Shown here one piece after another: positions 955-9,923 of a stretch of 64,000 nucleotides of DNA. The stretch is from Escherichia phage BF17. The DNA lies in the sequence record MW822008.1; one strand, written 5' to 3'. How positions within the stretch are numbered: position 1 is the stretch's first letter; each line of letters opens with the position of its first letter. The position numbers were made by a program, and so were the translations under genes. A model generated the notes under the pieces. It was given only the letters and a program-made list of their open reading frames with translations. It searched no databases and was not told where the DNA came from.

Positions 955-1057
955 ACTTGTCATAGGTTGTAGTGCACTTGCTGCATATATGCTTTTTTCC
1001 GCACCAACCAATGTATTACTGTTAATTTGGGCAGTTGTTATATTAGCAGTACTTTAA

Positions 1058-1080
1058 AGCACCCTAGTGGTGCTTTTTCT
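1058..1080 (+). terminator. intrinsic terminator
   Basis: Hairpin GCACC-ctagt-GGTGC followed by TTTTT. Confidence 0.55.
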
Positions 1081-1216
1081 ATTTGTGCAAATAAAAACCA
1101 ATGTGACTTTTCCTTGATATAGGTCAAGAGAAATAACCTGTTCTGACGCTATAATGTTGTCTGGTGATATTAAATATCTTCACCCCCAGATGATTTCAAA
1201 ATACAAGGAATGTACA

Positions 1217-3022
1217 ATGCAATTAGATAAATTATATACTGACGTAACGAATTTCCTCAATCAGAGCAATACTGATCTTACCAACGAAAATGCGAACAAA
1301 GATGCGAAATGCGTCAATACACACAGGGATTTACTTGCAGGTATCCTATCTAAGCATTATTCACAAGATGTTATTCCAAATGAGCTAATGCAGTGGCATA
1401 ATGATGGTTATGGTCATATTCATGATTTAGACTACTATATCAGCCCATTAACCAACTGTTGCTTAGTTAACTACCCAGATATGCTAAAAAATGGATTTAC
1501 CATTGGTTGTGCCAAAATTGAAGAACCAAAGAGTTTTAGTGTAGCATGTACAGTACTGACACAGATTGTACAAGCTGTAGCTAGTTCCCAATACGGCGGT
1601 CAATCGTTGGCTCACATTGATGTCGGTTTAGAACCTTACGTTCAAAAGTCATGGGATAAGCTGTTAGAAAAACAAAAGAAATATAATCTAAGTGATGAGT
1701 TCATTGAAGAAGAATTACGAAAAGAAGTATACGATGGATGTCAAACATTACTTTACCAGACTAATTCAATGATTAGCACTAATGGACAAGCTGCATTCAT
1801 TTCTCTTAGTTTAGGGCTTAATACTTCTAAATTTGGTAAATTAATCACTGAACAGTACTTAAAAGTTCATGAGAATGGTTTAGGTAAAGATAAGATTACT
1901 CCAGTGTTTCCTAAAGTAATTTTCTTTTTACAAGATGGTATAAACATGAATACCAATGATAGTAATTATGACCTTAAACAGTTAGCTATGCGTTGTGCAT
2001 CAAAACGAATCTACCCAGACTTTGTTTCAGTTCCATTAAATCACAAAGTGACGGGAAGTAGTAGTACTGCTGTAACACCGATGGGATGTCGTTCATTCTT
2101 AGGAAAATGGGAAGATTCAAATGGAAATGAACAATACAACGGTCGTTTCAATTTAGGTGTGGTTTCTATCAATTTACCTCTAATTGCTCTTGAGAGTGAT
2201 TCTGATGGAGAGTTTTTTGATAAGATAGACGAGCATATGAATATTGCATATCGTGCTCAGATGAACCGTGTGGAGCGTTTAAAAGGCACTAAAGCGAAGC
2301 AGAATCCAATTTTGTTCATGGAAGGTGCATTAGCACGTTTAGGTGCAGAAGAAACCATTGACAAGCTATTTTACAATGGTTATGCTAGTATTAGTATTGG
2401 TTATGTTGGTCTTGTTGAATGTTCAGAAATCCTCACTGGTTCTATCAGTAAGGAGTTTTGTATGTCAGTACTGAATTATATGAAAGTAAAATGTGATGAG
2501 TTCAAAAAAGAAAGTAATATTGCTTTTAGTCTATATGGAACTCCAGCAGAGTCGCTTTGTTATAAATTTGCACGTTGCATTGAAGCAAAATATCCTTCAG
2601 TACTAAAACGTGATTACATCACAAATTCCTTCCATCAACCAGTATGGGTAGAAAGTTCTCCATTTGATAAATGGAGTTATGAAGAAGGGTTTGCTTACCT
2701 AAGTAACGGTGGAAACATCAGTTATGTTGAATCTCCAAACTTAGCAAACAACATTCAAGCACTTGAAACATTAGTTAACTATGCGTACACTAAGATACCA
2801 TATTTTGGTATTAACCAACCAGTTGACCATTGTTATGAATGTGGCTTCCAGGGTGAGTTCAGTGTAGATAAACATGGTTTCCACTGTCCTGTATGTGATA
2901 ATCGTAATGAGAAGACAATCTCAGTGATTCGTCGTGTTTCTGGGTACTTGGGTAATCCTTCTTCGCGTGGCTTCAATAAAGGCAAGCAACAAGAGTGTTG
3001 TGAGCGTATTCAGCACAAATAA
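1217..3022 (+). CDS. nrdD: anaerobic ribonucleoside-triphosphate reductase (class III RNR) large subunit
   Basis: N-terminal NENANKD..RDLLAGILSKHY and DLDYY as in T4 NrdD; C-terminal glycyl-radical motif RVSGYLG and CxxC...CxxC zinc ribbon. Start moved to ATG 1217 (AAGGAA RBS 8 nt upstream); ORF track gives 1154. Confidence 0.9.
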   Translation: MQLDKLYTDVTNFLNQSNTDLTNENANKDAKCVNTHRDLLAGILSKHYSQDVIPNELMQWHNDGYGHIHDLDYYISPLTNCCLVNYPDMLKNGFTIGCAKIEEPKSFSVACTVLTQIVQAVASSQYGGQSLAHIDVGLEPYVQKSWDKLLEKQKKYNLSDEFIEEELRKEVYDGCQTLLYQTNSMISTNGQAAFISLSLGLNTSKFGKLITEQYLKVHENGLGKDKITPVFPKVIFFLQDGINMNTNDSNYDLKQLAMRCASKRIYPDFVSVPLNHKVTGSSSTAVTPMGCRSFLGKWEDSNGNEQYNGRFNLGVVSINLPLIALESDSDGEFFDKIDEHMNIAYRAQMNRVERLKGTKAKQNPILFMEGALARLGAEETIDKLFYNGYASISIGYVGLVECSEILTGSISKEFCMSVLNYMKVKCDEFKKESNIAFSLYGTPAESLCYKFARCIEAKYPSVLKRDYITNSFHQPVWVESSPFDKWSYEEGFAYLSNGGNISYVESPNLANNIQALETLVNYAYTKIPYFGINQPVDHCYECGFQGEFSVDKHGFHCPVCDNRNEKTISVIRRVSGYLGNPSSRGFNKGKQQECCERIQHK

Positions 3023-3030
3023 GGTAAATT

Positions 3031-3363
3031 ATGGATTTAAAGCCAATTGTGGTTAACAAATACAAAGAACCGTATGATGTGTATATTGGACGTGGGTCTA
3101 AATGGGGAAACCCATTTACCCATATTAAAGATAAACAAACCAAAGCCGAGTTCATTGTTAGTACAAGAGAAGAATCAATTGAAAAATTCAGAGAATACAT
3201 TATTGAACGTATTTCTTGTGGAGAAGTTAAGATTGATGAATTACTTGAACTCGCAGGGAAACGCCTTGGTTGTTTCTGTAAACCAAAATCATGTCACGGC
3301 GATGTTCTTGTCGAAATAGTGAGTGCAATATTAGATGAATTACCAGACGATAATCAAGGATGA
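3031..3363 (+). CDS. DUF4326-like conserved phage protein
   Basis: Motif YDVYIGRGSKWGNPF near N-terminus recalled as DUF4326 signature; wedged between nrdD and nrdG. Confidence 0.45.
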   Translation: MDLKPIVVNKYKEPYDVYIGRGSKWGNPFTHIKDKQTKAEFIVSTREESIEKFREYIIERISCGEVKIDELLELAGKRLGCFCKPKSCHGDVLVEIVSAILDELPDDNQG

Positions 3364-3805
3364 TTTAGTAAATGGAGAGGGCGTTCGCTGCTCTTTATTT
3401 GTTAGTGGGTGTTCGCACGGATGTGATGGTTGCTTCAATGAAGAAGCATGGGATTACAGAAGTGGTCAATTGTTCAGTACTGAAACAGTTGAGATTATAC
3501 TACAGGAACTAAAAAAACCATATGTTAGTGGTTTGTCACTTCTAGGCGGCGATCCATTAATGAAAAAGAATATAGATGAAGTTTTAAATCTATGCAAAGT
3601 AGTTAAAGAAACTTATCCTAGTAAAACTATTTGGTGCTGGAGTGGGTATACTTTAGATGAGATTATGAAAAATCATGCTAAAGATATACTTCAGTACTTA
3701 GATGTATTAGTTGATGGTAAGTTTATTGAGTCCGAAAAGAATTTAAAATTACCTTTCCGTGGTTCAAATAATCAAAGAATACTATATAAAAATAAAGATT
3801 TTTAG
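3335..3805 (+). CDS. nrdG: anaerobic RNR activating protein (radical SAM)
   Basis: N-terminus MNY...DLVNGEGVRCSLFVSGCSHGCDGCFN parallels T4 NrdG including the cysteine cluster. Confidence 0.85.
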   Translation: MNYQTIIKDDLVNGEGVRCSLFVSGCSHGCDGCFNEEAWDYRSGQLFSTETVEIILQELKKPYVSGLSLLGGDPLMKKNIDEVLNLCKVVKETYPSKTIWCWSGYTLDEIMKNHAKDILQYLDVLVDGKFIESEKNLKLPFRGSNNQRILYKNKDF

Positions 3806-3809
3806 CATA

Positions 3810-3831
3810 AGCACCCGTTGGGTGCTTTTTT
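3810..3831 (+). terminator. intrinsic terminator after nrdG
   Basis: Hairpin AGCACCC-gtt-GGGTGCT followed by TTTTTT. Confidence 0.65.
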
Positions 3832-3881: not shown

Positions 3882-6578
3882 ATGTCAAAGAAAATATATG
3901 GTGGCTTAGATGTCACACATAATGTGACAGTTAATGGTAAAAGAACAATTCAAGGAATAAATGAACAAGTTTTTGATTCCAACGGTAACTTGGAATTAGA
4001 TACTTATTCCAGAGATGAAGTACTAGATATAGTAAGTATGATGCCAATCTCCCATTATGGTTCACAAAACTATCTACCTGCGGGTGTTTCTGGGGATTTC
4101 AATGGTGCATCAGAAAACCAGTCACAACGTAGAAATAAAATTTTATTAGAAAACGATGGTACACTAGTACTTTTACGTAGTGGGACAAACGGTAGTGTTG
4201 AGGGATTATTTTATTCATATTTGGCTAACGCATTATCAGTTGATGACATGAGCCGTACAATTAACACTAGTCGTCAATACAAGCCTGGGTTTTTTGGTTC
4301 AAATAGAGTTGCGATTGGTTTATACAATACTGATCCAAATATTTTACTCGGTAGATATATTGATACTTCTAACAGTACTAATGGTTTGTTCATATCAATT
4401 ACCAATGGTACATTAGATGATAAATTGCATACTGGTTTTTTCGTTAACCAAGCAGATATATCACCTGAAGGTGGTATTGAATATGCTATGATGGCAGAAG
4501 ATGGTTCTATATATGTTTTTAACGTACTTAATGAAAATAACCAACTACAATTAGTTGTTGTAAAAGTTGTTTATAATATAAGCAATGGTACTTATACTGC
4601 AACTCGAATTACTGGATGGACTACTAAAACATTTTATAACACGACATATTCTGCACAAAATAATATGGTTATTACTAATCAGGTAACATCAACAAATATT
4701 GCTGATAAACCTTATGTGTATGTTCCACAAAATCTACGTGGTATTGGGATTTACATGACATCAATTGATTTATATGTTGCACAGCAGCCAGGAACGCAGA
4801 ATTTCCGCTTTAGAATGAACGGGGACGCTTGGTTTACAATGGCAACATATAATACACGTCCACAGCATAGTTACAGTTTTGTGTTCAATATGAGTACTAA
4901 ACAATGTACATTAGATGCGGGTAACGATATTGGTTCATATCAAGCACCATTAGTTATAACTAATACTGGTTCGGCATTAGTTCCTACTGGTAACGTTTTA
5001 AATAACGATCCATTGTATAACCATGCAAATGCAAGAAACATTTATAGTTCATATTTTTATTTGAATTCTGGTGAAGCTTTTTGTACTACATGTCCAAACT
5101 TAGCAGAACCATTACTTATGCAAAAAGCTAAGTTTCCTATTCAAATAGTTTATAGTATGCTGAATGTCCGTGCTGTACTTTCTACTGACTTCAAAGGTGG
5201 TATAGTTCGCCCGTCTTTTGGTTCAGCGGTTGGTTCATTTATTAATGGTGTAGAATTACTACCAGATAACAGTACTAAACAATATTCACGTGCATCAGGT
5301 AGTGGTGGATTTAGACCATCATATGCAGTTCATAAAAGTACTCCTAATTTTACATTTAAATCATTATCTTTAGGAACAATACAAGGTTATGAACCTACAG
5401 TTGAACGTGCTAATGTTGATGATAATGCAAATAATAGAATTTTTATTAGTAGTATTTCTGGGTCAACTGTCACAACCAATGGTGGTATTTTTATGGTTGG
5501 GCAACGTTATTCACAATCATTATCCTATGATAAAAACTTAAATGGCACAGGAATTATAAGCGTTACACAATCAGTACTGGACAATTTTAGAAATACTGAA
5601 TATGCCAAAGTTCTAAGTGATTGGAATTTATCAGCACAAGCATACCGTGATATGACACTATTTGTTCCACAACAAACAGACATTCCAGCTTTTGTTATGT
5701 TGAGTACAATTACTAATGATTATAGAAACTATATTAGAATTGCTGAAGTTAATGTCAATACTAGAGTTGGTAATATTACATCTATTACATTTAAGCGTTT
5801 AGTACTTGAGAATACGTATGGTGATAACTTTACACCAACTGGGAATGGTTCGATTGCATCTTCTTCTGTTGGTTTGACCATATATGATGGTGGTTCATTC
5901 TACTTCATTGGTGGTTCTGACCCATTATCACATCCAACAATAGGTAATACTGCAACTCATCAATTTAGAGCATATGTAACTAAATCAACTGCACAATTTA
6001 CAAGTTTTATAATTACTGGATCTCATGCCAGTTATGAACAAGGAAGTCAACCAGCAGCATTACCTGGTATTGGTTTTGGAATTTTTGAACCAATGGATTA
6101 CTCAAATAAAATGACATTCAAAAAATATGGAACAACGATTGCAGACTATAATAACTGGACTGCACAAGGTAGCCCAATTAACGTAGTATCCCAGGACGTT
6201 GCTCAAGGGTTTATTGTATATTTTACAGAGGAAACACCAGTTATTCTTTCAGGTAAGTCATTTTCACTACCAGTTTCAAATATTGATTTGAGAACTATTA
6301 AGTCTAATCCAGCAAATACAACATTTTATGTATATGTTAAATTGGAACAAGGATTGGCAAACTATTACATAACTACTGATGTTATTTCTGAAACAGGGAC
6401 AACTGCATATAATATTTTTTGGATAGGTACAATTCAAACTAATGCAATTCAAATCGAAACAATTAATATACAAAAACGTTCCCGTTTAGATATATTTGGT
6501 GCTTCACTTGAATCAGCAGGTTCATCGTTCCCAGTTAGCTACGGTCTACCATCACAAACAGGAACCATAAACTGGTAA
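3882..6578 (+). CDS. large fibre-like protein, paralog 1 of 3 (putative tail fibre/receptor-binding protein)
   Basis: 898 aa; shares N-terminal (PISHYG..LVLLRSGTNGS) and C-terminal (VVSQDVAQGF..KSNPANTTFY...SSFPVSYGLPSQTGTINW) modules with 7194-9923; function inferred. Confidence 0.5.
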   Translation: MSKKIYGGLDVTHNVTVNGKRTIQGINEQVFDSNGNLELDTYSRDEVLDIVSMMPISHYGSQNYLPAGVSGDFNGASENQSQRRNKILLENDGTLVLLRSGTNGSVEGLFYSYLANALSVDDMSRTINTSRQYKPGFFGSNRVAIGLYNTDPNILLGRYIDTSNSTNGLFISITNGTLDDKLHTGFFVNQADISPEGGIEYAMMAEDGSIYVFNVLNENNQLQLVVVKVVYNISNGTYTATRITGWTTKTFYNTTYSAQNNMVITNQVTSTNIADKPYVYVPQNLRGIGIYMTSIDLYVAQQPGTQNFRFRMNGDAWFTMATYNTRPQHSYSFVFNMSTKQCTLDAGNDIGSYQAPLVITNTGSALVPTGNVLNNDPLYNHANARNIYSSYFYLNSGEAFCTTCPNLAEPLLMQKAKFPIQIVYSMLNVRAVLSTDFKGGIVRPSFGSAVGSFINGVELLPDNSTKQYSRASGSGGFRPSYAVHKSTPNFTFKSLSLGTIQGYEPTVERANVDDNANNRIFISSISGSTVTTNGGIFMVGQRYSQSLSYDKNLNGTGIISVTQSVLDNFRNTEYAKVLSDWNLSAQAYRDMTLFVPQQTDIPAFVMLSTITNDYRNYIRIAEVNVNTRVGNITSITFKRLVLENTYGDNFTPTGNGSIASSSVGLTIYDGGSFYFIGGSDPLSHPTIGNTATHQFRAYVTKSTAQFTSFIITGSHASYEQGSQPAALPGIGFGIFEPMDYSNKMTFKKYGTTIADYNNWTAQGSPINVVSQDVAQGFIVYFTEETPVILSGKSFSLPVSNIDLRTIKSNPANTTFYVYVKLEQGLANYYITTDVISETGTTAYNIFWIGTIQTNAIQIETINIQKRSRLDIFGASLESAGSSFPVSYGLPSQTGTINW

Positions 6579-6589
6579 AGGATTACATA

Positions 6590-7177
6590 ATGGCATATAA
6601 AATAAGAGCAGACCTTAAGGCAATGCAACAAGTTACAGTTCAGGGTAAAAGTACTGGTCTTGGTGTATTAGGTAATAATATGACTTATTACCCAACAAAT
6701 TCAAATGGGGAATGTACATTCCCCTCTATTACCAAAGATGAAGTTAACTTTATTGTCAATGGATTACCACTTACACAATACGGAGAATTGTATGATGACG
6801 CTAGTCTAAATATTACTTCATCAGGCTATAGTCTTACATTTAATAGACAGATACCATCATTTATTGGTGGTTATCTTTATAAATTTCCAGCAGTTTCTAT
6901 TTTTGCTTCAACTGTTTCATCTGGAACACAAACACAATACGTATATGCAACGTTAGTTCTCGGTGAACCAATTTATAAAATATCACCAACACAAATACAA
7001 GAATCTGAAATTATAATGTTTATTGGAACACTGACCGTTGGTACAAGTGGTATTACAAATATAAACATTAATAAAGTATCCAGATTTAGTACATATAGAC
7101 CTAGTGTTACACAAAAAGGTTCTTCATTCCCAGTCAGTACTGGAAAACCATCAGAAACTGGTACAATTGGTTGGTAA
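6590..7177 (+). CDS. short paralog (195 aa) carrying only the shared N- and C-terminal modules of the flanking fibre-like proteins
   Basis: C-terminus ...SSFPVSTGKPSETGTIGW matches the C-terminal motif of both neighbours; N-terminus MxYKI...VTVQGK resembles theirs. Confidence 0.5.
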   Translation: MAYKIRADLKAMQQVTVQGKSTGLGVLGNNMTYYPTNSNGECTFPSITKDEVNFIVNGLPLTQYGELYDDASLNITSSGYSLTFNRQIPSFIGGYLYKFPAVSIFASTVSSGTQTQYVYATLVLGEPIYKISPTQIQESEIIMFIGTLTVGTSGITNININKVSRFSTYRPSVTQKGSSFPVSTGKPSETGTIGW

Positions 7178-7193
7178 ATTAAGGAAAAGAAAG

Positions 7194-9923
7194 ATGTCAT
7201 CAAAACGAATTATAGGAAGTGCCGAGATCCTTGGGAACTTGGCAATTGGACAAAGGTACGCTATGCGTACTTTTAATGGAACCTCACCGAATGCCAATAC
7301 TGGAATTGTTCAATATCCAATATATAAGCGTTCAGAAGTTCAAAGTATTTTAGATATGTTGCCTATATCACGTGTAGGAGAAATGGATTACTTACCATTA
7401 AACGTAAGTGGGTCGTATGAAGGTGCTACACCTATGTCAAGTGACCAAGTAGTTCAGCCAACAATTATTGAAGATGATGGAACCGCCGTTGTTCTGCGTA
7501 GCGGAACCAATGGTAGTACTAAAGGTTTTTATTATTCATTTATACGAGAACTCCGAAATATAACTATGATTTCACAAGAAAGTGTTATTTCAACCAATTC
7601 AATGTATAAACCTTCAATTATGAGTAGTACTGAAAATATTAAGTATTTTATTGGCTCTAATGGTTATGAGATGCTTGGATGTTTAAGTACTGAAGATAAT
7701 TATATTTTTACTATAACCAATGGCACATTTAACGAAATATCACATATTCATGCTAAAGTGCCAAGTACTTCTTTTGGTAATGATATGCCAATATATACAC
7801 ATATTGTTGGGACAAAGGTTTATATTTGGTGTAAAGATAAAAGTGTTTCTAATTTAGGATTAGCACTTTCAATTTATACAGTAGAGCTAAGTGATGTGAA
7901 AGCAAGCTCAATGGCATCATTAACAAAAGTTACTGGGTTATCAGGTCAAACTGTTCGAAACACAAGTTATTCTGCATCTAATAACATAAGAGTGTTCGAT
8001 AAATTATATAGTGTTGGTACTAGCTCGGATTCATTATTCGAAGTTACATCACCAGTATCACGTGTAGAATTTTCAGACTATACAGACTTTAACATTCAAG
8101 CCAACGTTAGTCCTGATTTATCAAAAATACGTGTAACTTTATATCCAACACATCGAATGGTTACACCTTTGTATATTTCAACAGTTTATGGTACTGGAAT
8201 AAGTTTTGTTTATAATATAAACTCAAAATCTATGTCACTAGATGGTAGTGCTCGTGCACCTGCAACTGTTTCATATAATAATGGATTTCAAGTTTCTAAC
8301 CCATTTGAAATTAATATGGTCAACTTCACAGGGACAACTGCTGCTGGTGTATTAGGAAACGCAGGTGGTTTATGTCAAACTAAAGATGGTTTGGTATTTG
8401 CATCTAAATTTAGATGGAGTTCAACTGAATTTTATGGTCTACAACGATATAAGGTTAGTGGTACACCGTTTGATTCATGGGTTGCCAGTACTAGAACCGC
8501 AAGTAACGTTATAAATGCAAACGTTTTACCAGTTTTTGGTAGTGCTGTTGGTGCAAACCTTTTAGGTGTACGTTTCATCGATAATAGAAAAATATTATTA
8601 GCATGTTCTGGTACGTATGATGATGTAACATATAATTATAATAATACTGTTTTTTCTGAAATAGGTTCACAACCAACATATCAATATAACTCAGTTCAAA
8701 ATAATACTACATTAAATGGTTTTGCACCACAATCTAATCGTAAACAAATAGGCGATGATTTTACATACACTGCTATGATTTCTCTTGTTGATACCGATGG
8801 TAGTGTTAGATGCTATGGAACATCATTCATTGAAGGTGTATATAAAACAAGTGGTGGATTATTAAACCCAGATACTTTAGAATTTGATGAAACATATACA
8901 ATAGAACCAACGGTATTAGAATCATTAAAACAAGATATTTTTGCTAATATAGGAAACTCTGGCATTGTTGGCACACTATCTGGACAAATTGTATTATATT
9001 ATGTACCTGATAATACTTTTTCTAAATCCATCGCAGTAGTTTCAGCATATAATCTTAACAATAACCAAGGTTATGCAATCTATGCCGAAGTTGATGTTGT
9101 ATTATCTGGAACTAACATAACTTCAGCTACATTGGTGAGTACTAGATATGAGACACTTAGTTCTGTTACAGGAATTATTACTGAAGCATATATGAAACGT
9201 TGTACTGGTCTAACAGTTGCAAAATATTCAGGATTTGGTTACATTGGTGTTGATGCTGTTCATCAATTTTCACAACCAGGTAATGCACAATTTAAGATGA
9301 TGATAGCTAAAACAGTAGATGGTGTCATAACATCAAATCGTTTTTTATCATCTAGTTACATCCAACTTGGTGCAGCATATCAACATGGTGTTATTCCTGG
9401 TGTTGGTTTTGGATATTACAATTTTCAAGATTCTGACTATCAAACCAAATCTGTATTCAGCGTTTTTGGTACAACATCTGCTGAAATGGATGGTTTAATT
9501 AGTGGAAATGGTAGCGTTAAAGAAAAGATTGTGGTAGTATCACAAGACGTTGCACAAGGATTCTCAGTGTACTTTACACGTGAAGTTCCGGTGTTTTTAG
9601 GTGGAATTTTCGACAGACTACCTATACAAAGTGTTGATTTAAGTACTGTAAAAAGTAACCCAGCTAATACTACGTTCTATTTGTATATACAAATGAACAG
9701 GAATACTAAGAAAGCGTCATATGTTATTAGTACTGAAACAATTGATGAATCTTTAACTAGCACTTACATTGGTAAGATAGTTACTGGAACTTCAGGAATA
9801 ACTTCAATTGATACAGAAAAAGTAACTCGTTTTTTGACATATCGTCCAAGTACAACGAAACGTGGTTCAGCGATACCTGCCAGTACTGGTGTACCATCAG
9901 GTCCAGGTACACGTTGGAAATAA
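7194..9923 (+). CDS. large fibre-like protein, paralog 3 of 3 (putative tail fibre/receptor-binding protein)
   Basis: Start set to ATG 7194 (AAGGAAAAG RBS); ORF track start 7104 is an in-frame non-ATG extension. Shared N- and C-terminal blocks with 3882-6578. Confidence 0.5.
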   Translation: MSSKRIIGSAEILGNLAIGQRYAMRTFNGTSPNANTGIVQYPIYKRSEVQSILDMLPISRVGEMDYLPLNVSGSYEGATPMSSDQVVQPTIIEDDGTAVVLRSGTNGSTKGFYYSFIRELRNITMISQESVISTNSMYKPSIMSSTENIKYFIGSNGYEMLGCLSTEDNYIFTITNGTFNEISHIHAKVPSTSFGNDMPIYTHIVGTKVYIWCKDKSVSNLGLALSIYTVELSDVKASSMASLTKVTGLSGQTVRNTSYSASNNIRVFDKLYSVGTSSDSLFEVTSPVSRVEFSDYTDFNIQANVSPDLSKIRVTLYPTHRMVTPLYISTVYGTGISFVYNINSKSMSLDGSARAPATVSYNNGFQVSNPFEINMVNFTGTTAAGVLGNAGGLCQTKDGLVFASKFRWSSTEFYGLQRYKVSGTPFDSWVASTRTASNVINANVLPVFGSAVGANLLGVRFIDNRKILLACSGTYDDVTYNYNNTVFSEIGSQPTYQYNSVQNNTTLNGFAPQSNRKQIGDDFTYTAMISLVDTDGSVRCYGTSFIEGVYKTSGGLLNPDTLEFDETYTIEPTVLESLKQDIFANIGNSGIVGTLSGQIVLYYVPDNTFSKSIAVVSAYNLNNNQGYAIYAEVDVVLSGTNITSATLVSTRYETLSSVTGIITEAYMKRCTGLTVAKYSGFGYIGVDAVHQFSQPGNAQFKMMIAKTVDGVITSNRFLSSSYIQLGAAYQHGVIPGVGFGYYNFQDSDYQTKSVFSVFGTTSAEMDGLISGNGSVKEKIVVVSQDVAQGFSVYFTREVPVFLGGIFDRLPIQSVDLSTVKSNPANTTFYLYIQMNRNTKKASYVISTETIDESLTSTYIGKIVTGTSGITSIDTEKVTRFLTYRPSTTKRGSAIPASTGVPSGPGTRWK

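What the first reader, a model, noticed from the sequence alone, without database searches (positions are those of the whole stretch)
3031..3363. DUF4326-like gene inserted between nrdD and nrdG
nrdD and nrdG normally act as a unit, yet a 110-aa ORF with the YDVYIGR..KWGNPF motif sits between them and overlaps the nrdG start by 29 nt. DUF4326 proteins are widespread in phages with no settled function. The tight embedding suggests co-expression with anaerobic RNR.
Basis: partly seen in the sequence, partly recalled or inferred. Interest (0 to 1): 0.4.

Follow-up and report, generated by a model that had tools for sequence, protein, structure and literature searches.

The report
DUF4326 gene within phage nrdD–nrdG operon
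A small, well-conserved phage gene of a very large family of unknown function (the family of T4 NrdA.1) sits inside the anaerobic ribonucleotide reductase operon of an E. coli jumbo phage, but comparison with other phages suggests it is a passenger in a variable slot rather than a part of the reductase.

Summary
Window 3031-3363(+) is a 110-aa ORF 8 nt after nrdD that overlaps the nrdG start by 29 nt. It matches Pfam DUF4326 (E 6e-24) and PHROG 464. The window is Escherichia phage phAPEC6 (Asteriusvirus), where the ORF is already deposited as a hypothetical protein.

The gene is real: dN/dS is 0.13 against phage K64-1. Two terminator hairpins bracket nrdD-ORF-nrdG, so co-transcription is likely.

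It is a homologue of T4 NrdA.1 (44% identity), which overlaps the nrdA start in T4-like phages.

A specific link to the reductase is not supported. The nrdD|nrdG slot holds different genes in different phages:
- a homing endonuclease in T4;
- a GrcA-like gene in fENko-Kae01;
- four other genes in Eneladusvirus, whose DUF4326 lies about 11 kb away.

None of 79 metagenomic viral loci with close homologues has an RNR gene within 10 kb.

The family is huge (17,615 cluster representatives). [quoted passage not shown] R21, C81, C83, C88 and H89 are invariant.

The best guess, following published predictions, is a Cys/His enzyme acting on ribose-linked phosphates. This is untested, and no solved structure matches.

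The finding is already known and of low to moderate interest.

The parts
1056..1076 (+). Terminator-like hairpin (AAAGCACCCTAGTGGTGCTTT plus a T run) upstream of nrdD. It marks the left edge of the cassette.
   Evidence: It and its near-twin at 3809 are the only two copies of AGCACC..GGTGCTT in the 64 kb window. A terminator is annotated at the same place in phage UE-S1.
1217..3022 (+). nrdD, the class III (anaerobic) ribonucleoside-triphosphate reductase. The mechanical ORF opens at 1154, but the likely start is 1217.
   Evidence: Pfam NRDD E 1.6e-166 and Gly_radical E 1.3e-22. An AAGGA Shine-Dalgarno precedes 1217. The K64-1 and GenBank starts align to 1217.
3020..3025 (+). Shine-Dalgarno (TAAGGT) of the DUF4326 gene, overlapping the nrdD stop codon.
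   Evidence: Read directly from the sequence.
3031..3363 (+). The finding: a 110-aa stand-alone DUF4326 protein of the T4 NrdA.1 family (phAPEC6 gp325c).
   Evidence: Pfam PF14216 E 6e-24. PHROG 464 E 1e-43. 44% identity to T4 NrdA.1, E 5e-25. AF2 model with pLDDT 91.3. dN/dS 0.13.
3082..3117 (+). Codons for the N-terminal motif Y18-I-G-R21-G-S-K-W-G-N27-P-F29.
   Evidence: R21 is 100% and N27 99% conserved over 163 diverse family members.
3271..3303 (+). Codons for the invariant C81-x-C83-x-P85-x-x-C88-H89-G-D91 loop. It lies between the last strand (78-81) and the last helix (89-103).
   Evidence: C81, C83, C88 and H89 are 100% conserved over 163 sequences. Secondary structure comes from the model.
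3335..3363 (+). The 29-nt overlap of the DUF4326 3' end with the nrdG start. It encodes the low-confidence tail of DUF4326 and the conserved MNYQTIIKD start of NrdG.
   Evidence: pLDDT below 50 for residues 108-110. An equivalent 23-nt overlap occurs in K64-1.
3335..3805 (+). nrdG, the radical-SAM activase of NrdD (156 aa).
   Evidence: Pfam Fer4_12 E 2.9e-53 and Radical_SAM E 6.3e-09. PHROG 626.
3809..3827 (+). Terminator hairpin (AAGCACCCGTTGGGTGCTT plus TTTTT) directly after nrdG. It marks the right edge of the cassette.
   Evidence: A terminator is annotated at the same place in UE-S1.

Best explanation
The ORF is a genuine, strongly constrained gene for a stand-alone DUF4326 domain, the family of phage T4 NrdA.1.

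Expression. It is transcribed together with nrdD and nrdG as the middle gene of a three-gene cassette bounded by two terminator hairpins. Its own good ribosome-binding site, and the fact that its reading frame runs 29 nt into nrdG, probably help ribosomes reach the weakly signalled nrdG start. This step is inferred.

Relation to the reductase. It is not a component of the reductase. It is a passenger in a slot between nrdD and nrdG that different phages fill with different genes.

Biochemistry. It is most likely a small enzyme that uses the invariant Cys/His loop (C81-x-C83-x4-C88-H89) together with R21 and N27. The likely substrate is a phosphate attached to a ribose, in ADP-ribose/NAD-derived nucleotides or at nucleic-acid ends. 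In that role it would serve the phage's nucleotide-metabolism and counter-defence toolkit. The biochemical step rests on domain fusions and on the published prediction by Iyer, Burroughs and Aravind, and nobody has tested it.

Rough confidence by step:
- real gene and family membership: 0.97;
- co-transcription: 0.8;
- passenger rather than RNR-specific partner: 0.7;
- ribose-phosphate-processing enzyme: 0.3.
For: Family: Pfam and PHROG matches and homology to T4 NrdA.1.

Constraint: dN/dS 0.13. The protein is identical in 21 genomes whose DNA differs by up to about 3.6%.

Cassette: terminators on both flanks and an 8-nt gap plus a 29-nt overlap inside.

Variable slot:
- T4: nrdD-mobC-nrdG.
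- fENko-Kae01: nrdD-GrcA-like-nrdG.
- K64-1 and UE-S1: nrdD-GrcA-like-DUF4326-nrdG.
- Eneladusvirus: four other genes in the slot, with DUF4326 about 11 kb downstream.
- XaC1: a 78%-identical copy beside a Thg1-like gene.

No general RNR link:
- 0 of 79 IMG/VR loci have an NrdA, NrdB, NrdD or NrdG homologue within 10 kb, even at E<0.01.
- There is no conserved neighbour.
- Kuttervirus, Pollock, Ceto, D480, SeKF_13 and YuA copies lie elsewhere.
- Aeromonas phage 44RR2.8t.2 keeps the gene between td and denA with no nrdA beside it.

Neighbours are mostly replication and nucleotide-metabolism genes.

Enzyme inference:
- R21, C81, C83, C88 and H89 are invariant over 163 diverse members.
- The model shows a strand-loop-helix around the Cys loop.
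- Of 46 longer relatives, at least four carry a SLOG-type domain (YAcAr 4, YpsA 2, DprA 2 family hits), 3 carry Macro and 1-2 carry NADAR. BFVD shows similar fusions.
- Published predictions appear in PMC7824862 and PMC9503650.
Against: - Profile comparison with E. coli YeaO (DUF488) is insignificant, with hhalign probability 0.2%.
- The loop is not a canonical CX5R phosphatase loop. Three invariant Cys plus a His could equally be a metal site.
- The gene sits directly upstream of, and overlapping, an RNR gene in two different settings: nrdG here and nrdA in Straboviridae. That leaves room for a real RNR or dNTP link.
- Co-transcription is inferred from sequence only.
- The phage's Sir2-Nudix-cREC_REC genes are about 11 kb away, not adjacent.
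Confidence: 0.45

Rival explanations
1. Dedicated accessory of ribonucleotide reductase or dNTP synthesis. The protein would assist the reductase it is co-translated with, for example by adjusting substrate or effector nucleotides, supplying reducing equivalents through its cysteines, or helping load or repair the metal or radical cofactor. It would assist NrdG/NrdD here and NrdA in T4-like phages.
For: - It lies directly upstream of an RNR gene and overlaps its start in two different RNR classes: nrdG here and in K64-1, and nrdA in T4, G4507 and Henu6.
- It is kept in all 35 Asteriusvirus and 7 Alcyoneusvirus records.
- It shares the slot with a GrcA-like glycyl-radical spare part, which is functionally tied to glycyl-radical enzymes.
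- It has invariant cysteines.
Against: - It is absent from the slot in fENko-Kae01, Eneladusvirus and T4.
- A 78%-identical copy in XaC1 lies away from nrd genes.
- 44RR2.8t.2 keeps it without an adjacent nrdA.
- 0 of 79 viral metagenome loci have an RNR gene within 10 kb.
- YuA has an RNR, but the gene lies about 11 kb away, beside the DNA polymerase.
- A rough estimate (inference): with about 80 independent contexts and about a 1% chance each of abutting an RNR gene, 0.4-0.8 adjacencies are expected and 2 are seen, which is not significant.
- The fusion partners are SLOG, Macro and NADAR, never RNR domains.
Confidence: 0.15
2. Non-catalytic metal-binding module. C81, C83, C88 and H89 would ligate Zn (or an Fe-S centre), and the protein would act by binding a nucleic acid or a host or phage protein, as a regulator or inhibitor, rather than as an enzyme.
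For: - Four potential ligands are 100% conserved within nine residues.
- There is no canonical CX5R loop.
- No significant structural match to any enzyme was found.
- The protein is small, and some copies occupy early-gene positions: it is the second gene of phage Pollock.
Against: - Additional invariant polar residues far away in the sequence (R21, N27, and R46 at 90%) look like a substrate pocket.
- Repeated fusion to enzymatic ADP-ribose- and nucleotide-processing domains is typical of an enzyme in a pathway.
- C88 and H89 are adjacent, which is awkward for joint ligation of one ion (inference).
Confidence: 0.15
3. Enzyme of deoxynucleotide or DNA modification or end processing. It would act on modified dNMP/dNTP pools or on DNA ends during replication or recombination of phages with altered DNA.
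For: - Neighbours include td, frd, dCMP deaminase, a dUMP hydroxymethylase-like gene, DNA polymerase, gp46/47, polynucleotide kinase and a DNA methylase.
- Iyer et al. note fusions to replication and R-M components.
- From memory, the 2023 Burroughs and Aravind abstract predicts DNA-end processing for part of this clade. The paper could not be read here.
Against: No modification gene is consistently adjacent. Nothing was found here about DNA modification in Asteriusvirus. The fusions seen here are mostly ADP-ribose-related.
Confidence: 0.15
4. Selfish mobile insert, like the free-standing homing endonuclease mobC that occupies the same slot in T4.
For: The same intergenic slot holds an HNH homing endonuclease in T4. 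The gene has a patchy, context-free distribution across very different phages.
Against: - No nuclease family matches.
- There is no presence/absence polymorphism among 35 Asteriusvirus genomes, and purifying selection is strong.
- The fold is a small alpha/beta domain, not an HNH or GIY-YIG fold.
Confidence: 0.03

Closest known systems
Phage T4 NrdA.1 (NP_049846, 108 aa), PHROG 464
   Same: Homologous: 44% identity, E 5e-25. It has the same size and the same C-x-C-x-P-x-x-C-H-G-D loop. It also lies immediately upstream of a ribonucleotide reductase gene and overlaps its start, by 10 nt with nrdA. It too has no known function.
   Different: T4 NrdA.1 sits in the aerobic frd-td-nrdA.2-nrdA.1-nrdA-nrdB cluster, not in nrdD-nrdG, where T4 has mobC instead. 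Its N-terminal motif is altered: NIHRG..WGNYV instead of YIGRG..WGNPF, and it lacks the THIKDKQTKAEFIV insert.
Pfam PF14216 DUF4326, placed by Iyer, Burroughs and Aravind in the rhodanese-phosphatase superfamily (RapZ-C/DUF488/DUF4326 group)
   Same: Clear member of PF14216. The fusions to SLOG, Macro and NADAR that those authors report were reproduced here. Weak hints support the DUF488 and RapZ link.
Other occupants of the nrdD|nrdG slot: T4 mobC and GrcA/YfiD-like glycyl-radical proteins
   Same: They occupy the same intergenic position within the same operon, also with overlapping or abutting reading frames.
   Different: They are unrelated proteins. mobC is an HNH homing endonuclease. The GrcA-like protein matches Pfam Gly_radical and has an obvious link to glycyl-radical enzymes. 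DUF4326 has neither feature.
NADAR (YbiA) domain
   Different: The scores are below significance. None of 62 members gives a Pfam NADAR hit. Fusion of the two domains in one protein argues that they do different jobs.

Membership tests
Pfam DUF4326 (PF14216) | Profile match above the curated gathering score | tested here: met
   84.9 bits against a cut-off of 25, E 6e-24, residues 8-95 on profile positions 4-82 of 82.
Pfam DUF4326 (PF14216) | Family-wide invariant residues (R in IGR, N in WGN, C-x-C...C-H loop) | tested here: met
   R21, C81, C83, C88 and H89 are 100% and N27 99% conserved over 163 diverse members. All are present in the window protein.
T4 NrdA.1 / PHROG 464 | Sequence homology to T4 NrdA.1 and a match to the PHROG profile | tested here: met
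   BLASTP 44% identity, E 5e-25. phrog_464 E 1e-43.
T4 NrdA.1 / PHROG 464 | Synteny: between td and nrdA in the aerobic nucleotide-precursor cluster | tested here: not met
   Here the gene lies between nrdD and nrdG. T4, G4507, Bp7 and Henu6 have it before nrdA.
Rhodanese-phosphatase superfamily, RapZ-C/DUF488/DUF4326 group | Detectable sequence or profile relationship to DUF488 | tested here: inconclusive
   Sub-threshold PF22751 (DUF488-N3a) hits occur in 44 of 62 members, best E 2e-4, 16-19 bits against a cut-off of 27, over the C-terminal half. However, hhalign and HMMER against an E. coli YeaO alignment are insignificant, and both alignments are shallow.
Rhodanese-phosphatase superfamily, RapZ-C/DUF488/DUF4326 group | Fold similarity to RapZ C-terminal domain, rhodanese or PTP structures | tested here: inconclusive
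Rhodanese-phosphatase superfamily, RapZ-C/DUF488/DUF4326 group | Catalytic Cys in a strand-loop-helix (CX5R-type) active site | tested here: inconclusive
   Invariant Cys residues sit in the loop between strand 78-81 and helix 89-103. The spacing C83-x5-H89 has His where Arg is expected.
Rhodanese-phosphatase superfamily, RapZ-C/DUF488/DUF4326 group | Phosphate-transfer or phosphoesterase activity | not testable with these tools
   Needs biochemistry. No experimental report was found.
NADAR (PF08719) | Profile match or significant fold match | tested here: not met
Class III RNR system (NrdD, NrdG, GrcA-like) | Homology to a known component | tested here: not met
   Only DUF4326 is matched.
Class III RNR system (NrdD, NrdG, GrcA-like) | Conserved co-occurrence with nrdD-nrdG across phages | tested here: not met
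   It is present in the slot only in Asteriusvirus and Alcyoneusvirus. It is absent from the slot in fENko-Kae01, Eneladusvirus and T4. 0 of 79 IMG/VR loci have an nrd gene nearby.
Free-standing homing endonucleases (as T4 mobC in the same slot) | Nuclease domain, and presence/absence polymorphism among close relatives | tested here: not met
   No HNH, GIY-YIG or LAGLIDADG match. The gene is present in every Asteriusvirus record.

The most novel reading that the evidence does not exclude
DUF4326/NrdA.1 proteins are nucleotide-processing enzymes that feed or tune ribonucleotide reduction. One possibility is that they convert NAD/ADP-ribose breakdown products or phosphorylated ribonucleotides into RNR substrates or effectors. 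Under this reading, selection has twice placed them in translational register with an RNR gene: nrdA in Straboviridae and nrdG in Asteriusvirus and Alcyoneusvirus. This would link phage NAD/ADP-ribose conflict systems to dNTP supply.
Probability: 0.1. Interest if true: 0.6.

Novelty: already known. Interest (0 to 1): 0.25.

Why it matters
DUF4326 is one of the larger phage-borne families without a tested function: 17,615 cluster representatives at 50% identity and 2,278 deposited phage genomes, T4 among them. Any clue to its substrate would be useful.

This case adds little new. The gene is already deposited, and the family is already classified and has a published predicted function.

The comparative result does have practical value:
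- It argues against reading operon position as evidence of function here.
- It shows that the nrdD|nrdG junction is a recurrent landing site for unrelated genes.
- It flags T4 nrdA.1 as a tractable model for testing the family.
- It exposes some annotation errors, namely a truncated nrdG and "NrdA-like ribonucleotide reductase" labels on DUF4326 proteins.

Tried and rejected
Dead ends:
It was redone with A2.
- The afdb50 library was not available.
- PDB sequence searches with the protein and with the profile found nothing. Foldseek against PDB found nothing.
- The Burroughs and Aravind 2023 paper (NAR Genom Bioinform lqad029) is cited but could not be read. What I say about its "RapZ-C-DUF488-DUF4326 clade" is from memory.
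- Literature searches for nrdA.1 and rhodanese-phosphatase gave nothing experimental.
- The test of DUF488 kinship through E. coli YeaO gave no significant signal by hhalign in the tool, or by HMMER and hhalign in the sandbox.
- The window has no tRNA genes or Rfam families.

Explanations considered and rejected:
- Chance ORF: rejected on the Pfam E-value and on dN/dS.
- Homing endonuclease: rejected because there is no nuclease domain and no presence/absence polymorphism.
- NADAR membership: rejected because there is no profile hit.
- A DUF4326-bearing phage with no RNR at all, tested with YuA: YuA does encode an RNR (gp07), but about 11 kb from its DUF4326 gene.

I looked for a sigma-70 promoter before nrdD. 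There is only a lone TATAAT at 1150-1155 with no usable -35.

Full report
**1. What is there**

The window is 100% identical to Escherichia phage vB_EcoM_phAPEC6 (MK817115), a 352-kb Asteriusvirus of the 121Q/PBECO4 group.

ORF 3031-3363(+) encodes 110 aa. It starts 8 nt after the nrdD stop and has an AAGG Shine-Dalgarno 6 nt before its ATG. It ends 29 nt inside nrdG, whose ORF starts at 3335.

The nrdG start at 3335 is the true one. The product begins MNYQTI, carries the C-x3-C-x2-C radical-SAM motif at residues 26-33, and matches Fer4_12 over residues 12-149. Phage K64-1 has the same N-terminus. The GenBank record begins nrdG at an internal Met (window 3470), which would remove that motif.

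The middle ORF matches Pfam DUF4326 at E 6e-24 (84.9 bits, cut-off 25) and PHROG 464 at E 1e-43.

**2. It is a real, constrained gene in a three-gene cassette**

- Against the Alcyoneusvirus K64-1 orthologue, dN/dS is 0.13. The values for nrdD and nrdG are both 0.10. dS is saturated, so these are rough.
- At 79% amino-acid identity the protein is slightly more conserved than NrdD (73%) or NrdG (74%).
- The protein is identical in 21 deposited genomes, although their DNA differs by up to about 3.6% over this region.
- Two terminator-like hairpins with nearly the same stem lie at 1056-1076 and 3809-3827. They are the only two copies of that motif in the 64 kb window, and they bracket exactly nrdD-ORF-nrdG.
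- The UE-S1 record independently annotates terminators at both positions.

Co-transcription is therefore likely, but it is inferred. The nrdG start has only a weak GAG upstream, so the overlapping upstream frame may help its translation. That is also inferred.

**3. Identity: the T4 NrdA.1 family**

tblastn finds homologues in 2,278 of 50,697 phage records. Phage T4 NrdA.1 is 44% identical (E 5e-25).

In T4, G4507, Bp7 and the distant Acinetobacter phage Henu6 the gene lies in the frd-td-(nrdA.2)-nrdA.1-nrdA-nrdB cluster. In T4, G4507 and Henu6 it overlaps the nrdA start by 4-10 nt. In Bp7 it ends 66 nt before nrdA.

An exhaustive profile search gives 17,615 cluster representatives at E<=1e-3.

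**4. Is the position between nrdD and nrdG meaningful?**

Occupants of the nrdD|nrdG slot in different phages:

| Phage or group | Genes between nrdD and nrdG |
|---|---|
| phAPEC6 / 121Q type | DUF4326 |
| UE-S1 (Asteriusvirus), K64-1 / RaK2 (Alcyoneusvirus) | GrcA-like (Pfam Gly_radical) + DUF4326 |
| fENko-Kae01 | GrcA-like only |
| fHe-Yen9-04 (Eneladusvirus) | four other genes; DUF4326 lies about 11 kb downstream, beside a Thg1-like gene |
| T4 | mobC, an HNH homing endonuclease that overlaps both neighbours |

Xanthomonas phage XaC1 has a 78%-identical copy, again beside a Thg1-like gene and not beside nrd genes.

Positions of DUF4326 in other phages:

| Phage | Position |
|---|---|
| Kuttervirus | next to gp46/47 and regB |
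| Pollock (N4-like) | second gene of the genome |
| Vibrio phage Ceto | among tRNA genes |
| Vibrio phage D480 | among small genes, near a dCMP deaminase |
| SeKF_13 | after rIIB, near polynucleotide kinase |
| YuA | between DNA polymerase and a dCMP-deaminase-like gene, about 11 kb from its RNR |
| Phapecoctavirus Mt1B1_P17 | 3.3 kb from RNR genes |
| Aeromonas phage 44RR2.8t.2 | between td and denA, with no nrdA beside it |

Metagenomic viral loci:
- Of the 80 IMG/VR loci returned as best hits (46-65% identity), 79 are not 121Q itself. None of these has an NrdA, NrdB, NrdD or NrdG homologue within 10 kb, even at E<0.01.
- No neighbour family recurs in more than 5 loci.
- Pfam on the flanking genes shows clamp loader, 5'-3' exonuclease, Pol III alpha, PhoH, dUTPase, NAMPT and DNA methylase.

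The consistent theme is therefore the replication and nucleotide-metabolism module, not RNR.

A rough estimate (inference): about 80 independent contexts, each with roughly a 1% chance of abutting an RNR gene, predict 0.4-0.8 adjacencies. Two are seen, in Straboviridae and in Asteriusvirus/Alcyoneusvirus. That is not significant.

**5. What the protein may do**

Structure:
- The AF2 model is confident (pLDDT 91.3). It is a small alpha/beta domain with short strands at 6-9 and 78-81 and helices at 46-62, 68-72 and 89-103.
- Over 163 diverse members, R21, C81, C83, C88 and H89 are 100% conserved and N27 is 99% conserved.
- The Cys/His cluster lies in the loop between the last strand and the last helix. 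That is the position of the catalytic loop in Cys-phosphatase/rhodanese-type Rossmannoid domains, but the spacing is not CX5R.

Domain fusions:
- Among 46 longer relatives, YAcAr matched 4 members, YpsA 2, DprA 2, Macro 3, NADAR 1 (plus 1 hit to DarT1-associated NADAR) and RNase H 1.
- BFVD shows the same kinds of fusions in phages and giant viruses.

Published predictions:
- Iyer, Anantharaman, Krishnan, Burroughs and Aravind (PMC7824862) call DUF4326 a probable enzyme that bridges NAD-utilising signalling with DNA-modification, replication and R-M systems.
- Iyer, Burroughs, Anantharaman and Aravind (PMC9503650) place it in the rhodanese-phosphatase superfamily. They propose that it processes terminal phosphates on the ribose of ADP-ribose or its breakdown products.
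- From memory, Burroughs and Aravind 2023 define a RapZ-C/DUF488/DUF4326 clade. The paper is cited but could not be read.

My own checks give weak, convergent but non-significant support for that clade:
- Sub-threshold PF22751 (DUF488-N3a) hits in 44 of 62 members.
- A BFVD DUF488 hit at E 0.25.
- Against this, profile comparison with E. coli YeaO is insignificant.

I therefore adopt "Cys/His enzyme acting on ribose-linked phosphate" as the most likely mechanism, at about 0.3. The main alternatives are a structural metal site, a role in dNTP or DNA modification, and a true RNR accessory.

**6. Context in this phage**

Outside the window, 11 kb upstream of the ORF, phAPEC6 has a Sir2 / Nudix (Nudt16-like) / cREC_REC trio. 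A WGR-domain protein lies 5.6 kb upstream and a dCMP-deaminase-like protein about 3.5 kb upstream. The phage therefore does carry NAD/ADP-ribose-type genes, but they are not adjacent to the ORF.

**7. Verdict**

Co-expression is plausible. The suggested functional coupling to anaerobic RNR is not borne out by comparison.

The gene and family are already known: deposited, labelled DUF4326 in several records, and computationally classified. Interest is low to moderate. The residual value lies in the unexplained function of a very large family and in the repeated, though statistically unimpressive, placement in front of RNR genes.

Noticed in passing
window 3335-3805 (GenBank MK817115 gp324c = window 3470-3805): The deposited phAPEC6 record starts nrdG at an internal Met. 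This gives a 111-aa product without the C-x3-C-x2-C radical-SAM cluster motif. The 156-aa ORF from 3335 matches Fer4_12 over residues 12-149 and begins MNYQTI, as its K64-1 counterpart does.
   Followed up: yes
window 1154-1217: The mechanical nrdD ORF opens at 1154. The start supported by homology and by a Shine-Dalgarno is 1217 (601 aa), as in the K64-1 and GenBank annotations.
   Followed up: partly
window 1056-1076 and 3809-3827: Two near-identical hairpins (AAGCACCC..GGGTGCTT plus a T run) are the only copies of this motif in 64 kb. They bracket exactly the nrdD-DUF4326-nrdG cassette. Both are palindromic enough to match on either strand.
   Followed up: partly
L086 3577-3972 (K64-1); L101 2842-3201 (UE-S1); L089 3236-3598 (fENko-Kae01); L090 4634-4996 (fHe-Yen9-04): A GrcA/YfiD-like autonomous glycyl-radical protein (Pfam Gly_radical, E 2.2e-16) sits between nrdD and nrdG in many related jumbo phages. 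It is missing from phAPEC6 and 121Q, so there is presence/absence polymorphism within Asteriusvirus. It could be a spare part for oxygen-damaged NrdD.
   Followed up: partly
L004 4950-5318 (Mt1B1_P17); L094 3958-4527 (SeKF_13); records vB_Ec-M-J, pW2, Sophrita, CR9, W22: Small DUF4326 proteins are labelled "ribonucleotide reductase NrdA-like" in several records (phrog_24867). This looks like carry-over from the gene name nrdA.1. The Mt1B1_P17 protein matches only DUF4326 in Pfam.
   Followed up: partly
L085 9799-11429, 15408-16379, 18183-18551 (phAPEC6, upstream of the window): A Sir2 / Nudix (Nudt16-like) / cREC_REC (cyclic-phosphate-processing receiver) gene trio, a WGR-domain protein and a dCMP-deaminase-like protein lie 3.5-12 kb upstream of nrdD. 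This is an NAD/ADP-ribose-type gene set in the same genome region.
   Followed up: partly
L087 2753-4303 (fHe-Yen9-04); L099 2493-4303 (XaC1): In Eneladusvirus-type jumbo phages the DUF4326 gene lies one or two genes downstream of a tRNA-His guanylyltransferase (Thg1-like) gene. This neighbour recurs in two genomes and was not examined further.
   Followed up: no
window 3882-6578, 6590-7177, 7104-9923: The 898-aa and 195-aa proteins after nrdG share N- and C-terminal segments (36% identity over 125 aa, both ending ..SSFPVS.G.PS.TGTI.W). The short one looks like the long one without its central ~700 aa. They are probably fibre-type paralogues. The GenBank record annotates no CDS across window ~6579-9385, although ORFs of 195 and 939 aa lie there.
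   Followed up: partly
L096 3001-3267 (Aeromonas phage 44RR2.8t.2); L086 3977-4324 (K64-1, AB897757): The DUF4326 ORFs are present but not annotated in these records.
   Followed up: no
L100 7507-7827 (T4 gene 49.2): The RefSeq T4 record names the 106-aa gp49.2 "ribonucleotide reductase". This may be another name carried over from neighbouring genes. It was not checked.
   Followed up: no
window 1-64000: The whole window has no tRNA or tmRNA genes and no Rfam family at gathering threshold.
   Followed up: yes
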